A program made the position numbers. A DNA stretch of 64,000 nt from Octopus vulgaris. Lineage: Eukaryota. Shown here piece by piece: positions 1 through 12,000 of the stretch. Location of the stretch: assembly GCA_951406725.2 (NCBI GenBank), contig OX597828.1:1364001-1428000 (forward strand). The letters are read 5' to 3'. How positions within the stretch are numbered: position 1 is the stretch's first letter; each line of letters begins with the position of its first letter.

Positions 1-3000
1 AAATACAAGACATAAATAGCAGAACCTAATCTAATAATGTTGAAAAGGAAGGAATTTTCGGTTGGAATCGGAGGAAACTTACCTGATCGGCCATGATCGC
101 AGTTTGGAAAGGATGTGAGAGGGCGCTGTAGCTGTGCGCATGCTTACGGAAATAACATCCGGTTGATTGGACTGCCCTCAAGTGTGAATGTACGGAAGTA
201 ATCTTACTAAGGGGAGGCAACTCATAAAACATTTCGTTCCACGTGAAACATGTCTGGGATTGAAAAAGTCGCTCCTTTACTGTTAAGGGGATCAAAGCAA
301 ATGAGATTTCCGATACGGGTAAATTTATTTATTTTTATTTCTTCAATGTCACATTTCAACGAGTTTCTTGATTGAAAATAACCTCCTAAAATCATAACTT
401 ATGAAAAAAAAAAAAAAATGCATATTCTAGTCAGTGCGCGGAAACAATGTTGCGAAAACTGTGTTTATTAGAAATAAGATCGGCGCCAATATTAAAATAC
501 TTTCTTTCAACTTTATAGTGTGCAGGATATCCTCTAGCAAGCTGGAATTCTGGTTTAAGGACCCCACATAACCACTCGTAACTTTAAAAAATTTTTTATT
601 TTGTCGTGTTTTCTTTCGTTCTTCACGTATCTGTAAGAATTTGTTCTCTATTTTTGCTATTTTTGTTCCTTTAGAAATAATTGCTAATAATAATAATTAT
701 AGTGAAGGGAAATCTGTGTTTCCTACTTATCACGAATAGAATAAATTCTGGCTGTTAGAAAAGTGTAATTAAAACTTTTCGCAGCCTTAGCTGTTCACCT
801 TCAGCAATTGTCTCTTCCCAGTTTACTGCTTCATACCCTTCAAACGTTCACGAATGTGACTTTGGTAAATATTTCGTTAAGGGCCCGTTCCTACCTTGAT
901 GTGAAATAATTTTTTTCCACAGGTTTTTACGAAATATTTACCTTATGAACGAGCACTGCTTGACAAGGGTGTCGGTGTGTTTACGTCCCCGTAAAATAGC
1001 GGTTCGGTATAAAATACCGACAGAATAAATACGAGGCTTAAAAAAAAAGTACTGGGCTCGATTCGTTCGGCTAAAATTCTCCAAGGCGATGCCCCAGCAT
1101 GGCTATAATATTATGATTTAAACAATTAAAGGATAAATGAATTGACACAAGATTTAAAAGTGACTTTGAACGTCAAAGTCAGTAAGAACGAGCGAGAATT
1201 GTAGGAGTTGCTTCCCCTGTGTCTATCAGTGACAAGATTTTGTTTGGTAAGGATGAAACGAAGATAAATTTTGAAGTAGGATTTTCTACATAAAATTATA
1301 ATAGTTTTATGTTTGTTAAAAACAGAATGTTTTGTAAAAAATAACTTTCAGTGACACTACTTTAAGTATTAATGTGTATGTCGTCTGAAAAGTTCAATGT
1401 TTTCCAAGGTGGTTGCAGGACATCCAGACCTTGGGTCATCTTCAACACTATCCCTTCCTCTCTTAAATTCAGCAACCCATTTTTGCGCTGTTGATGAAGC
1501 TGGAGTGTTATCCTTTAACATAGCAACTATGTCAGCATGAATATACGTTGAGGCTAAAACCTTTTTCTGCAGAGACTTAATAACACCACGGTGGCAAATT
1601 TTGCCCATTTTCAAATCAAATTGCTACTAGTTTTAAAGTCGTCTTTGAACAGTGAGATGTCAGTTACCTGGAAAGAAACAATGCAGTTATTGATAAGAAG
1701 AGTTGAAATTAATGCATGCAAAATTTCACTGCCGTAGCATCACTCCTTCATAGTCAACCTATGAACTTTTCAGCCCACCCTTGTATATTATTTTTGGTAA
1801 ATATTTTAACTTCATTGCTTAGGTGATCATTGTTTGCAGTGTATCACTTTGATGTTCAAAAAACCTAAAAATATTTTCATCCTAATTTTCTATCACTGGT
1901 TATAGATATCCAATTCCTTCCCTTGACAAAAGTGGACTTTGTTTAAAAAATACTTGTTTTTTTTTTCTCCTTGCTAATTTCATAAAAGTAAATATCGTAA
2001 CCTTTAGGTGAAGCATCATCAGTGACTGTCGGTATCAAAAAGGACTAAAAAAAATAGCTTAGCTTTCTTGAATTATGGAAACAAAGGCTCTAAAATAGGT
2101 TATGGGTGGGTCTTCTCGAGCTCAGTGAATTACCATTCATCTTGATCTTTTGTCATTTCCTTCATGAAACTCAACATCATGAGGTCAGTCTTCACTATTG
2201 AATTCCCAATGGCAATTTTCAGGATGAGTTCAAATTATGCGAGAAGGTTGGACTGAATTATAAGTACAAGCCTGGTTCATGTCTTCTCAGTCTCACTGGC
2301 TTGGGTTGACCTGAGGTTGTGGTAAAGGACACATGTGCAACACACAAGCAGGTGAGGTTGAGCTTAGGCCCTCATGTTTCTGAAGTAAATTCTTTATCCA
2401 CCCAGCCTTGCCTGAATCTATATTTAAGATTACATGGCAATAACTGACTTAATTCATAGATTACCAGACTTGCAGTATTTAGTTGCATCCCTTTACCTTC
2501 TCAGTTCAAATCCTGTGGACATTGACATTACTTTTTATTGGGATTAATAAAATATGTTACTAGGCCTAATTAAAGCAACTGAATTGAATTACCCTCACTC
2601 TACACAACAGGAAAGTTTAAACTTTCATACCAACATTTAGAAATCAATATATTTTGGATTTCAAAGTGCAACAAGGCTAATTAAGTGTAATAATACAGGG
2701 AGAAATAGCAATTTTTGACCTGTAGATCTTGTGTAAATCTTATAAAAAGAAAAAAAGTAAGTTAAACTAAAGCCTTAGATAACATTAAAAAAAAATTTTT
2801 TATTGTCTTTTAATTTTTTATAGGTATTTTGTGATAAGATTTCTTCTGAAAGTGTTACAAAAGATGTACCTACAAAAGATGTACCTATAAAAGATGTACC
2901 TACAAAAGATGTACCTACAAAAGATGTACCTACAAAAGATGTACCTACAAAAGATGTACCTGCAAAAGATTTAGCTGCAAAAGATGTACCTGCAAAAGAT

Positions 3001-9000: not shown

Positions 9001-12000
9001 TAAGATGCACCAAGTGTAAGCTATGGACACATAAGAGGTGCAGCAATGTCAAAGAAAGGCTAACTAGGAAGATAGTTTTTGTATGTGGCAGATGCTCAGG
9101 AGCAATAAACACTGAAAATGCTCTGAGACCAACTTCTGCCACATTCCAGGGAGAAAAACTAGAAATAGTTGATAGCTTCCGTTACCTAGGTGACCAAGTC
9201 AGTAGCGGGGGCGGATGTGCTGAAAGTGTAACTGCTAGAGTAAGAATAGCTTGGGCAAAGTTCAGAGAGCTCTTACCTCTGCTGGTGACAAAAGGCCTCT
9301 CGCTCAGAGTAAAAGGCAGACTGTATGACGCCTGTGTACGAACAGCCATGCTACATGGCAGTGAAACATGGGCCGTGACTGCTGAGGATATGCGTAAGCT
9401 TGCAAGAAATGAAGCCAGTATGCTCCGATGGATGTGTAATGTCAGTGTTCATACTCGACAGAGTATAAGTACCTTGAGAGAAAAGCTGGACCTAAGAAGC
9501 ATCAGTTGTGGTGCACTGGTATGGTCATGTGGCGAGAATGAATGAAGATAGTTGTGTGAAAAAGTGCCACACCCTAGCAGTTGAGGGAACCTGTGGAAGA
9601 GGCAGACCCAGGAAAACCTGGGACGAGGTGGTGAAGCACGACCTTTGAACTTTAGGTCTCACTGAGGAAATGACTAGAGACTGAGACCTTTGGAAGTATG
9701 CTGTGCATGGGAAGACCCGGCAGGACAAGTGAGACCATAACCCGTGGCCTCTACATGGGATGTAGCCAGTCCACTTATGCATACCTTTCCTGGGACACAA
9801 AACTCTACTTGTGAAGACCTATTGAGGCAAGTGAGAATCGAAATCGATCAACATCAATGGAAATTGCAGCTGTGATACCAGTGCCAGTGGCACGTAAGAA
9901 AACCATCCGAACGTGGCCGTTGCCAGTGCTGCCCCGACTGGCCTTGTGCTGGTGGCACGTAAAAAGCACCATCTGTTCATGGCCATTGCCAGCCTTGCCT
10001 GGCCCCCGTGCCGGTGGCACGTAAAAAGCACCATCCGATCGTGGCCGTTTGCCAGCCTCGTCTGGCATGTAAAAAGCACCCACTACACTCACGAAGTGGT
10101 TGACATTAGGAAGGGCATCCAGTTGTAGAAACATTGCCAGATCAGACTGGGCCTGGTGCAGCCTTCTGGCTTCCCAGACCCCAGTTGAACCGTCCAACCC
10201 ATGCCAGCATAGAAAACGGACGCTAAATGATGATGATGATGAAAGCCAAGAGAAAAAAATGTTTTATTTTGACACATTCTACCAGTTTATGAAGTTTTAT
10301 AGTGTTTAGTTAACTAGAAATTGTGTGCTGTTCAAAAGGAAAAGATCCAGAATGTTGAACTGCATTTTTTTATGCAACTGTTTGCATTTAGAATTCAAAT
10401 CCATTTTGGCCCATTTTGGTGGTAGACTTAATCTATTGCTTGATTTATCACCACCAACTAGCACCTAAGGTTGCCTTTAGTGGAGCCCATTCTGTCTCAA
10501 TCCACTGGGCTATGTTTTTAGTTTGTGGATGACTTTCTCCTTCTTTTCCACTAGTCTTGGAAGCTTTGTAAAAGGTCACAGGCAATATCTTCCCTCCTGA
10601 CTAAAAGATAAAAAAAACAAAACAATCATTCATTGAATCTTGAGTCAGGTTTTATTATCTTAGCTGTTGTTTCAATAACTCTAATTCAGCTCTATGATTA
10701 ATGGTGTGACTATCTTGTCTTCTTAGGATTGCATTATCTAATGTGTTCCCTTATTTGAGATGACAAGGTATGATTTAAGTAATATTTAACTGCTGTCTCT
10801 AGCAGGTTGAATATGTAGAGGCACCTTTGTTGGCTCAAGAGTTTTTCAGTGCAGGTAATCTCTTTCAGTTATATAATTTGCTTAATATTTATGTAATCCT
10901 TTTGGTTTAAATTTCTTTTTTTTTTTAATTTTAGTTTTGGCAGAAGATATCGACAATGCTTCTTTCAAATGTAAAGAATATTTTGAACATAATCCTATGA
11001 CGTTTTATGATATTGAATCGGGAATGGCAAAATACCGGGCACCACAACCAACTCCAGTTCACAATTAATTCATGACAATATTCAATAATGTAATAATGAT
11101 TGCTAATTCGTTGTTATCAATGTATTGATAGTCGTTTGAAAATAAAGTTTTACACCAAATATTTTATTGAGTTTCATTTTTATTTTAAATTTGAATCCCT
11201 TTAATCTGTTTCAATGTTTTACGATGCATAATGGATAATTTAGAGATGGTGATCATGAATATTCACCATTTACTTTCACTATTCTTGTTGAGTCTTGTGA
11301 ACTGTTTTTTTTTTATATTTCTAATAGATGACATGTATAAAGAGTTAAAGCTAATTTTATCAACTGTCTGTATATTTATTTTTAATCTGGAATTTCTATG
11401 AAATAATCTGCTTAGGGCTACACATTAGGCATGTGGCTAAAGGAAGGTTCTAGCCAAGTCAAGAGTAACATGGTTTTGGATTCATAAGGTTGATAGGGCA
11501 GCTAAGGCTAAGAGATCAGCTTGGAAAACATGGAAGGGTGGTTGTAAGGAGCATTATCAAATGGCTAGAAGGGCATCTAGGTGTTGGGTGTATTTCGTTA
11601 AGTGTCAAGTATAGAGGAAAAGATTTGCACCTGATCCTCTGACTCTGAACCTGCAGCATGAGAGGGTTCAGGATTGTGAGAGCATGTGTGAAAGAGAACC
11701 GAGATGTTATTGGTGACAAGTGTATTTAGAATGATGAAGGCAAATAAGACATTGATATGGAACAAAAGGAAGTGCTATTATGAAAAGCTGCTGAACATGA
11801 AGAATGCATGGGTTAAATAGGAATTACCTTATGCTGACCGAATCGAGGGATCAACAATTCCAGTTTATAGAAGTGTGGTAGATAAAGTAATCAAGGACAT
11901 AAAGAGGGGAAAAGTTATAGGCTCTTCAGCGATTGTTACAGAGATGCTCAAAATATCTGGGCGAGTAGGATGCAAGTGGAAGGTGTGACACTGAACAACT

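What the first reader, a model, noticed from the sequence alone, without database searches (positions are those of the whole stretch)
250..11068. NDUFV3-like complex I subunit with a 670-aa charge-neutral pentapeptide repeat
Seen: the splice phases of three exons join a presequence-like leader, 134 K-D-V-[P/A]-[A/V/T] units and the conserved NDUFV3 C-terminus into a 756-aa ORF. There are no indels or in-frame stops over 2 kb. The array is polar (KDVPT at the 5' end) and has higher-order block duplications. Exon 2 is phase 0 to phase 1, so it cannot be skipped in frame. Established: NDUFV3 is normally ~100 aa, and mammals make a long isoform from an optional low-complexity exon. Inference: a convergent and possibly constitutive giant disordered extension on the N-module of complex I, probably a length-polymorphic coding VNTR.
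Basis: partly seen in the sequence, partly recalled or inferred. Interest (0 to 1): 0.72.

Follow-up and report, generated by a model that had tools for sequence, protein, structure and literature searches.

The report
Octopus NDUFV3 with giant repeat linker
An octopus gene for a small accessory subunit of respiratory complex I carries about 133 in-frame copies of a five-residue unit in an exon that cannot be skipped, so the usual roughly 100-residue protein would become 756 residues, most of it a floppy charge-balanced tail.

Summary
Three exons (250-318, 2824-4891, 10935-11068) have canonical splice sites and compatible phases. Exon 3 matches Pfam NDUFV3 (45.3 bits, cut-off 25). Exon 2 holds a 15-bp array (2858-4876, 134.6 copies, no indels).

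Orthologues, not ORF integrity, fix the coding frame. An 87-aa Octopus bimaculoides protein has the same exon 2 flanks and the same exon 2/3 junction, but only 2 KDVP and 3 xDAPx pentads. A 98-aa homologue matches exon 1. The array is therefore a lineage-specific expansion of a short seed inside the NDUFV3 linker.

Lack of stops is weak evidence. The minus-strand frame is also open, and P(no stop) under neutrality is about 0.75.

The array is charge-neutral and well mixed and is predicted unstructured. It is unrelated to the mammalian long-isoform insert.

No RNA or population data could be reached, so expression of the full array, its copy number and its polymorphism remain untested. Eight weak in-phase internal donors could give shorter isoforms.

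Verdict: a real new variant of a known kind, most likely a young, tolerated coding minisatellite. Interest is moderate.

The parts
250..318 (+). Exon 1 coding part: ATG plus 22 codons, ending in phase 0. It is a basic N-terminus resembling a presequence.
   Evidence: One search gives the translation. One search counts 5 basic and 1 acidic residues. One search aligns it to the N-terminus of the 98-aa homologue P0008: 11 of 19 identical, score 49 against a maximum of 34 in 1000 shuffles. The donor is CGG|GTAAAT.
319..2823 (+). Intron 1 (GT...AG), holding a minus-strand Mos1-type transposase fragment.
   Evidence: The HTH_48 match is 20.2 bits, below its cut-off of 24.1.
2824..4891 (+). Exon 2: 2068 nt, phase 0 in and phase 1 out, with no Met codon in frame.
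   Evidence: The flank FCDKISSESVTKDVP.KDVP is 19 of 20 identical to O. bimaculoides P0004. The donor AAG|GTGAGT matches 9 of 9 consensus positions.
2860..4854 (+). Array of 133 15-bp units, consensus AAAGATGTACCTGCA = KDVPA.
   Evidence: All 133 matches to a 24-mer lie inside the array, with none elsewhere in the 64 kb.
4855..4884 (+). Two degenerate terminal pentads (KDAPT, NDALD), resembling the xDAPx units of the orthologue.
3055..3354 (+). Exact 150-bp (10-unit) block present twice: units 14-23 and 24-33.
3164..4199 (+). Span holding 8 internal donor-like sites, AAG|GTGTA[G/C]. They lie in the K-G units 21, 31, 41, 43, 51, 54, 81 and 90, with the G of the GT at 3164, 3314, 3464, 3494, 3614, 3659, 4064 and 4199. 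All are in phase 1, like the true donor.
   Evidence: 6 of 9 consensus positions each, against 9 of 9 for the exon-end donor. Their use is not shown.
4892..10934 (+). Intron 2 (6043 nt), holding a LINE-type reverse transcriptase and a 62-bp tandem repeat.
   Evidence: RVT_1 scores 91.2 bits at 8094-8870.
10935..11068 (+). Exon 3 coding part: 2 bases completing the split codon G|TT (Val), 43 codons and TAA.
   Evidence: The orthologue has Q-V-LAEDIDN at the same junction.
10952..11053 (+). NDUFV3 domain (Pfam PF15880, profile positions 1-34 of 35), the part that in solved structures binds complex I.
   Evidence: 45.3 bits, E 8.1e-12; chains named NDUFV3 in complex I entries.
11141..11146 (+). 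AATAAA, 73 nt after the stop, a likely polyadenylation signal.
   Evidence: Read. The function is inferred.

Best explanation
[quoted passage not shown] In related cephalopods its middle exon encodes a linker of about 40 residues rich in K, D, E, P, A and T, with only a few pentads. Here a 15-bp unit in that exon has been amplified in frame to 133 copies, by slippage or unequal exchange, including at least one 150-bp block duplication. The exon is needed to keep the frame and contains no start codon. The default product is therefore a 756-residue precursor made of three parts: a basic N-terminal leader; a spacer of about 665 residues that is strictly charge-alternating, net-neutral, rich in Pro, Ala and Val, and intrinsically disordered; and the conserved 35-residue C-terminal anchor that docks between NDUFV1 and NDUFV2. 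The tail would project into the matrix as a swollen, flexible chain. Most likely it is a young, nearly neutral coding minisatellite. It is tolerated because the NDUFV3 linker is unconstrained and the subunit is dispensable for assembly, rather than being an adaptation.

Shown here: the gene identity, the exon structure, the frame, the lineage-specific expansion and the composition. Inferred: translation of the whole array, mitochondrial import, docking on complex I, disorder in vivo and neutrality.
For: - Family: Pfam NDUFV3 at 45.3 bits against a cut-off of 25. All 15 PDB matches are chains named NDUFV3.
- Orthology and frame: O. bimaculoides LOC106883869 isoform X2 (87 aa) is 91% identical to the exon 3 peptide and 19 of 20 identical to the start of exon 2. 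It reads ...KDVPRKDVPTNDAPTHDAPTDDAPDSQ-V-LAEDIDN, the same frame and junction with only about 5 pentads. The 98-aa homologue P0008 matches exon 1, with 0 of 1000 shuffles reaching the observed score.
- Normal size: 26 of the 29 representative hits are NDUFV3-like proteins of 46-112 aa. The other 3 (391, 414 and 477 aa) are unrelated repeat proteins.
- Array properties: no indels. It is local to this exon. FCR is 0.38, NCPR -0.003 and kappa 0.02.
- Structure: the single-sequence AlphaFold2 model has mean pLDDT 30.6, with 688 of 689 residues below 50 and no helices or strands.
- Neutrality: 13 distinct unit variants, 2 synonymous and 11 nonsynonymous, against 11 of 45 possible synonymous changes (binomial P 0.75).
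- Tolerance of long disordered N-terminal parts is established for mammals. The N-terminal 64 aa of the short isoform and the extra 423 aa of the long isoform are disordered, and knockout gives only minor defects (PMC8762328, passages; PMC5293009, abstract and Discussion).
Against: No transcript, protein or population data for this species could be reached, so inclusion of the full array in mRNA is not shown. Eight in-phase internal donor-like sites exist. No 756-aa or otherwise long NDUFV3 protein was found in the protein libraries. With the exon 2 peptide as query, the only hits were 3 low-complexity proteins among 479 candidates. The representative library returned no long form. The profile search for longer proteins found none among 7997 candidates, which the tool itself calls weak evidence. 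The assembled copy number of a 2-kb 15-bp array may be wrong. The neutrality test is crude: it rests on 13 variants and ignores mutation bias and concerted evolution. The AlphaFold2 model used no alignment, so low confidence is only weak evidence of disorder.
Confidence: 0.6

Rival explanations
1. The array is in the genome, but most of it is removed from mature mRNA. Splicing from one of the internal in-phase K-G donors to exon 3 gives short or intermediate isoforms, so the 756-aa form is minor or absent.
For: There are 8 sites AAG|GTGTA[G/C] in phase 1, the same phase as the true donor. Each would join in frame to exon 3. Mammals regulate NDUFV3 length by splicing (PMC5293009).
Against: These sites match only 6 of 9 consensus positions, against 9 of 9 for the exon-end donor. 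Internal AG sites have at most 55% pyrimidines in the 20 nt upstream, against 75% and 90% at the two real acceptors. There are no RNA data either way.
Confidence: 0.15
2. The copy number is an assembly artefact, and the true array is much shorter, closer to the orthologue.
For: Arrays of short units are hard to assemble. The orthologue has only about 5 pentads.
Against: There are 24 distinct 15-mers in a non-periodic order with a 5'-to-3' gradient of variants, and only one exact 150-bp duplicate. That is not the look of a collapsed or looped assembly. The window has no N.
Confidence: 0.1
3. The expansion is adaptive. The polyampholyte tail has a function on complex I: steric or entropic shielding near the NADH/FMN site, spacing in the matrix, or a scaffold for partners.
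For: The strict K-D alternation is kept in most units: K in 126 and D in 119 of 133 units. The mammalian long isoform has been proposed to affect FMN loss (PMC8861397, abstract and passages) or to act as a scaffold (PMC8762328).
Against: There is no excess of synonymous change. High unit identity is equally expected from recent amplification. The close relative lacks the expansion.
Confidence: 0.1
4. This is a decaying or redundant gene copy, and a normal NDUFV3 lies elsewhere in the genome.
For: Only 64 kb of the genome was visible, so a paralogue cannot be excluded.
Against: All splice sites, the start and the stop are intact, and an AATAAA follows the stop. Exon 3 is 39 of 43 identical to the orthologue and above the Pfam cut-off. 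Introns are present, so it is not a retrocopy.
Confidence: 0.04
5. The repeat is a folded or DNA-binding module: a pentapeptide-repeat beta-helix, or a relative of the chlamydial histone-like Hc2.
For: Pfam HC2 scores 147 bits against a cut-off of 40. The period is five residues.
Against: The HC2 match is between periodic low-complexity sequences rich in K, A, V and P, and the array has net charge about zero. No pentapeptide-repeat family was listed even at E up to 10. AlphaFold2 gives no strands or helices. The PDB matches are low-complexity only.
Confidence: 0.01

Closest known systems
Canonical short NDUFV3 (about 10 kDa; Pfam PF15880)
   Same: The C-terminal anchor motif is conserved (DNxx[FY]K...Y[FY]xHN..[ST]FYD...M.K.R.PQP). 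The layout is the same: a basic N-terminus, a low-complexity linker and the anchor.
   Different: The linker is about 665 residues longer than in any of the 26 homologues of 46-112 aa that were recovered.
Mammalian long isoform NDUFV3-L (about 50 kDa)
   Same: A large, predicted-disordered insert lies between the shared N-terminus and the C-terminal anchor (PMC5293009, PMC8762328).
   Different: The mammalian insert comes from an optional exon, is not a tandem repeat and has a conserved run of 10 serines. Here the insert lies in an exon that cannot be skipped in frame. It is a 15-bp minisatellite in which Ser makes up 0.3% of residues. It shows no sequence match to the 471-aa chain.
Octopus bimaculoides LOC106883869 isoform X2 (87 aa, P0004)
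   Same: It is the orthologue: same exon 2 flanks, same junction, 91% identical C-terminus.
   Different: It has 2 KDVP units and 3 xDAPx units, not 133. Its N-terminus is different (MQLL), and no counterpart beyond chance was found in the window.
Coding minisatellites (VNTRs) in disordered protein regions, such as mucin-type repeats (recalled, not from a call)
   Same: In-frame head-to-tail units, variant gradients, block duplications and older units at the array edges.
   Different: This one lies inside a respiratory-chain subunit. Length polymorphism is not shown here.
Varroa jacobsoni LOC111270617 (P0005)
   Same: It has KDV[A/V]A and NDVVE-type charge-alternating repeats, 50% identical over 33% of the query.
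   Different: It has no NDUFV3 C-terminus. The likeness is probably low-complexity resemblance only.

Membership tests
NDUFV3 (Pfam PF15880) | The C-terminal domain matches the family model above the curated cut-off. | tested here: met
   45.3 bits against 25, E 8.1e-12, profile positions 1-34 of 35.
NDUFV3 (Pfam PF15880) | Sequence likeness to chains modelled as NDUFV3 in solved complex I structures. | tested here: met
   15 of 15 distinct PDB sequences matched are named NDUFV3. E-values run from 6.1e-4 to 0.23.
NDUFV3 (Pfam PF15880) | A mitochondrial targeting leader at the N-terminus. | tested here: inconclusive
   The exon 1 peptide has 5 basic and 1 acidic residues and aligns with the N-terminus of a 98-aa homologue. 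No targeting predictor was available.
NDUFV3 (Pfam PF15880) | The protein is physically part of complex I. | not testable with these tools
   This needs BN-PAGE, complexome profiling or cryo-EM of octopus mitochondria.
Mammalian-type NDUFV3-L long isoform | The insert is encoded by an optional, in-frame skippable exon. | tested here: not met
   Exon 2 runs from phase 0 to phase 1. Skipping it gives a frameshift and a stop after 21 codons.
Mammalian-type NDUFV3-L long isoform | The insert is homologous to the vertebrate insert, including the conserved serine run. | tested here: not met
   The exon 2 peptide does not match the 471-aa chain 8ud1_1s, whereas exon 3 does. Ser is 0.3% of the array. 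The serine run is described in PMC5293009.
Pentapeptide repeat proteins (beta-helix; Pfam Pentapeptide families, name recalled) | A match to the family model and a beta-helical fold. | tested here: not met
   No such family was listed at E up to 10. AlphaFold2 gives no regular strands and a mean pLDDT of 30.6 (single sequence).
Chlamydial histone-like Hc2 (PF07382) | A match to the family model. | tested here: inconclusive
   147.1 bits against a cut-off of 40, in 8 stretches. However, both sequences are periodic low-complexity K/A/V/P repeats.
Chlamydial histone-like Hc2 (PF07382) | A strongly basic, DNA-binding composition (recalled property). | tested here: not met
   NCPR -0.003, with 126 K against 128 D+E. 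The pI of the exon 2 peptide is 5.5.
Coding minisatellite / VNTR | Head-to-tail in-frame units with variant structure. | tested here: met
Coding minisatellite / VNTR | Copy number varies between individuals. | not testable with these tools
   No second genome or reads of this species were available.

The most novel reading that the evidence does not exclude
The whole array is translated constitutively. [quoted passage not shown] Its length varies between individuals, and it tunes access to or stability of the flavin site, or recruits matrix partners. That would make it a natural, invertebrate, obligatory counterpart of the regulated mammalian long isoform.
Probability: 0.1. Interest if true: 0.75.

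Novelty: new variant of a known kind. Interest (0 to 1): 0.48.

Why it matters
NDUFV3 is the only complex I subunit known to come in two very different sizes. What the long mammalian form does is still open (PMC5293009, PMC8861397, PMC8762328).

An independent expansion of the same linker, one the gene cannot skip, in an animal with a very active nervous system would be a natural experiment. If the long protein sits on complex I, bulk at this site is tolerated, or useful, regardless of sequence. If alleles of different length exist, their respiratory phenotypes could be compared directly.

It also adds a mollusc to the range of NDUFV3. An early survey found no NDUFV3 in insects, nematodes or fungi.

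If the array is spliced out, or shorter than assembled, this is only an annotation curiosity.

Tried and rejected
- Looked for the alternative first exon of the orthologue's isoform X2 (MQLL) with a degenerate pattern. It gave 13 matches against 11.6 expected by chance, and the one inside intron 1 (1681-1693) has no donor after it. Nothing usable.
- Searched the big protein set with the exon 2 peptide. Only 3 low-complexity hits came back (a mite protein and two kinases), and no octopus protein.
- Searched for longer NDUFV3 forms with a 26-sequence profile. None was found among 7997 candidates, which the tool calls weak evidence.
- The ESM Atlas look-alike search gave a best score of 0.84, below the 0.9 needed for more than a lead. 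All hits were repeat or low-complexity clusters.
- Rfam on 1-12000 gave no match.
The second member of the orthologue's cluster, perhaps isoform X1, could not be seen.
- Literature full-text searches: 'NDUFV3' with 'octopus' gave 0 papers. 'KDVPA' gave 0 papers. 'NDUFV3' with 'tandem repeat' gave 13 papers, none with either term in the title or abstract; 10 were seen, as listing only.
- Rejected ORF openness as evidence for coding.
- Rejected the Pfam HC2 hit as a composition artefact.
- Complex prediction was not used. Its reference chains cover bacteria, archaea and phages only, so NDUFV1 and NDUFV2 could not be supplied.
- No supplementary files were consulted.

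
Full report
**What is there.** The window has no N. Its nearest named protein is from Octopus bimaculoides, so I take it for an octopod genome. Nothing in it looked human.

Positions 250-11068 hold three coding exons on the + strand:
- Exon 1 (250-318) is ATG plus 22 codons and ends in phase 0 before GTAAAT.
- Exon 2 (2824-4891) starts right after a TAG that serves both as the AG acceptor and as the in-frame stop bounding the ORF. It runs 2068 nt (689 codons plus 1 base) and ends at AAG|GTGAGT.
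- Exon 3 (10935-11068) follows a T-rich tract and AG. It supplies the last two bases of a split Val codon, then 43 codons and TAA. AATAAA lies 73 nt downstream.

The length of 756 aa is arithmetic: 69+2068+134 = 2271 nt.

**The repeat.**
- TRF finds one array at 2858-4876, period 15, 134.6 copies, 90% matches, no indels.
- In frame it is 133 units with consensus AAAGATGTACCTGCA = KDVPA, followed by KDAPT and NDALD.
- There are 24 distinct 15-mers. KDVPA occurs 40 times, KDVAA 35 and KDVPV 17. Of the 133 units, 107 fit K-D-V-[P/A]-[A/V/T].
- The first six units are KDVPT or KDVPI. T at the fifth position occurs only in units 1-54, and V there is centred on unit 91.
- Units 14-23 and 24-33 are an exact 150-bp duplicate. 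The longest repeated unit-string is 10, against a maximum of 7 in 500 shuffles.
- The unit occurs nowhere else in the 64 kb: 133 of 133 matches to a 24-mer lie inside the array.

**Is it coding?** ORF integrity does not show it.
- Over the array the stop counts are 0, 81 and 1 in the three + frames and 4, 0 and 12 in the three - frames, so the minus-strand AGTSF frame is also open.
- Only 1 of the 45 single-base changes to the consensus makes a stop in the KDVPA frame, and none does in AGTSF.
- With 13 distinct variants, P(no stop) is about 0.75.

The evidence that counts is comparative.
- The exon 3 peptide matches Pfam NDUFV3 at 45.3 bits (cut-off 25, E 8e-12, profile 1-34 of 35). All 15 PDB sequences it matches are NDUFV3 chains of complex I structures.
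- The one hit in the 5.8-billion protein set is O. bimaculoides LOC106883869 isoform X2, 87 aa, 91% identical to the exon 3 peptide.
- That protein reads MQLLAFCDKISSESVTKDVPRKDVPTNDAPTHDAPTDDAPDSQVLAEDIDN.... It has the same exon 2 start (19 of 20 identical), the same frame, and the same Q-V-L junction across the split codon. It has only two KDVP units and three xDAPx units.
- A 98-aa homologue from the representative library (P0008, 72% identical in exon 3) begins MFSIEKTAIYLLRRSKQMK. This aligns with exon 1 at 11 of 19 identities, score 49, and 0 of 1000 shuffles reached that score.

All three exons and the frame are therefore supported by relatives. The array is a lineage-specific expansion of a short seed that was already in the linker.

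**How unusual is the length?** The exhaustive search of 1.84 billion representatives gave 29 hits at E up to 0.001. Of these, 26 are NDUFV3-like proteins of 46-112 aa. The three long ones (391, 414 and 477 aa) are unrelated repeat proteins that match through a short FYD-like motif.

No long form was found with the exon 2 peptide or with a 26-sequence profile restricted to longer proteins. Both are weak negatives.

**Properties of the array.**
- It is 665 aa: V 24%, A 23%, K 19%, D 18%, P 11%.
- It has 126 basic and 128 acidic residues. FCR is 0.38, NCPR -0.003 and kappa about 0.02, so the charges are as well mixed as they can be.
- From recalled polymer theory of polyampholytes (Das and Pappu), such a chain should be an expanded coil.
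- AlphaFold2 without an alignment gives mean pLDDT 30.6, with 688 of 689 residues below 50 and no secondary structure. This is weak but consistent evidence.
- No pentapeptide-repeat family is listed. The Pfam HC2 hit (147 bits) is a match between periodic K/A/V/P sequences, and the net charge rules out an Hc2-like basic protein.
- The PDB and ESM Atlas searches give low-complexity leads only.
- The exon 2 peptide has no Met, so it can be translated only from an upstream exon.

**Selection.** Of the 13 distinct variants, 2 are synonymous and 11 are nonsynonymous. The neutral expectation is 11 synonymous among 45 possible changes, and the binomial P is 0.75. There is no sign of purifying selection on residue identity. 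The test is crude, and concerted evolution blurs it.

**Splicing.**
- Skipping exon 2 puts exon 3 in the wrong frame, giving FWQKISTMLLSNVKNILNIIL*.
- However, the eight K-G units carry AAG|GTGTA[G/C] in phase 1, the phase of the true donor. Use of any of them would join in frame to exon 3 and give proteins with 20-89 units.
- Those sites match 6 of 9 consensus positions, against 9 of 9 for the exon-end donor.
- Internal AG sites lack pyrimidine tracts: at most 55% pyrimidines upstream, against 75% and 90% at the real acceptors.
- Whether any internal site is used needs RNA data, which I could not reach.

- The 64 N-terminal residues of the short form and the extra 423 residues of the long form are disordered.
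- The subunit joins the complex last and exchanges in and out.
- Its knockout has only minor effects (PMC8762328, passages; PMC5293009, abstract and Discussion).
- The long form has been proposed to influence flavin loss (PMC8861397, abstract and passages) or to act as a scaffold.

By homology, the octopus protein would dock the same way and trail a neutral, flexible chain of about 70 kDa into the matrix. I consider a young, tolerated minisatellite expansion the most likely reading (0.6). The rivals are:
- internal splicing that removes most of the array (0.15);
- an over-long assembly (0.1);
- a functional, adaptive tail (0.1);
- a redundant gene copy (0.04);
- a folded or DNA-binding repeat (0.01).

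**Comparison with what is known.** The gene is a member of the NDUFV3 family. It works like the mammalian long isoform in layout only. The insert is not homologous to the mammalian one, it is a tandem repeat, it lacks the serine run, and it lies in an exon that cannot be skipped. The word 'convergent' is therefore apt.

An early survey did not find NDUFV3 in insects, nematodes or fungi. The best PDB match here is the 62-aa chain 8b9z_s, which I recall, without a call, to be from the Drosophila enzyme. Cephalopod homologues clearly exist.

No paper in the searched library pairs NDUFV3 with octopus or contains KDVPA. Thirteen papers hold both 'NDUFV3' and 'tandem repeat', none of them in the title or abstract; I saw 10 of them, as a listing only.

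**Practical point.** The useful ones are DVAVEDVAAK (3 copies), DVPVIDVAAK (3), DVPVIDVPVK (1), ISSESVTK and DAPTNDALDFQ....

**What stayed unchecked.** I could not check transcripts, reads, other octopod genomes, population variation or a possible second locus. The genome collection is prokaryotic and was not used. No supplements were read.

Noticed in passing
window 79-96 (- strand) and 136-143: On the minus strand, ATGGCCGATCAG is followed directly by GTAAGT, about 150 bp upstream of the NDUFV3 ATG. It could be the first coding exon of a divergently transcribed neighbour sharing a promoter. A GCGCATGC palindrome lies between the two starts. It resembles the NRF-1-type sites of nuclear respiratory genes (recalled).
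   Followed up: no
window 7357-9545 (+), inside intron 2: A LINE-type retroelement: the ORF at 8094-8870 matches RVT_1 at 91.2 bits, and the ORF at 8958-9545 matches a PHD finger at 24.1 bits. It is interrupted by frame changes. It accounts for the GC rise at 8-10 kb.
   Followed up: partly
window 9881-10066: A GC-rich 62-bp tandem repeat, 2.9 copies, 76% matches, just downstream of the retroelement in intron 2.
   Followed up: no
window 1369-1623 (- strand), intron 1: An ORF fragment resembling the HTH domain of Mos1-type transposases: 20.2 bits, below the cut-off of 24.1. It is probably a decayed mariner-like element. A similar-looking fragment at 5262-5606 gave no Pfam match.
   Followed up: partly
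window 25000-35800: Two related LINE copies on the + strand, with long ORFs at 27755-29593 and 32877-35771 (RVT_1 at 80.6 and 83.4 bits, plus zf-RVT). Each is preceded by T/N/P-rich ORF1-like frames.
   Followed up: partly
window 40543-42447 (+): A PIF1-like helicase ORF, 183.5 bits at 41211-41963, split over several frames. It looks like a decayed Helitron-type element.
   Followed up: partly
window 22400-22800, 37900-38250, 47700-48000, 49800-50050: Long microsatellite or simple-repeat tracts, seen as LSIY, YVCM and YIYI-type frames. The whole window beyond 12 kb looks rich in transposable elements, and no other host gene is evident.
   Followed up: no
protein P0005 (Varroa jacobsoni LOC111270617): A mite protein carries a long run of KDV[A/V]A and NDVVE-type charge-alternating pentads. 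It has no NDUFV3 C-terminus. It is an unrelated example of the same kind of repeat.
   Followed up: partly
protein P0004 (O. bimaculoides isoform X2): This isoform begins MQLL instead of the conserved basic N-terminus, so it would lack the leader. No counterpart exon beyond chance was found in the window. It may come from an alternative promoter or be a model artefact.
   Followed up: partly
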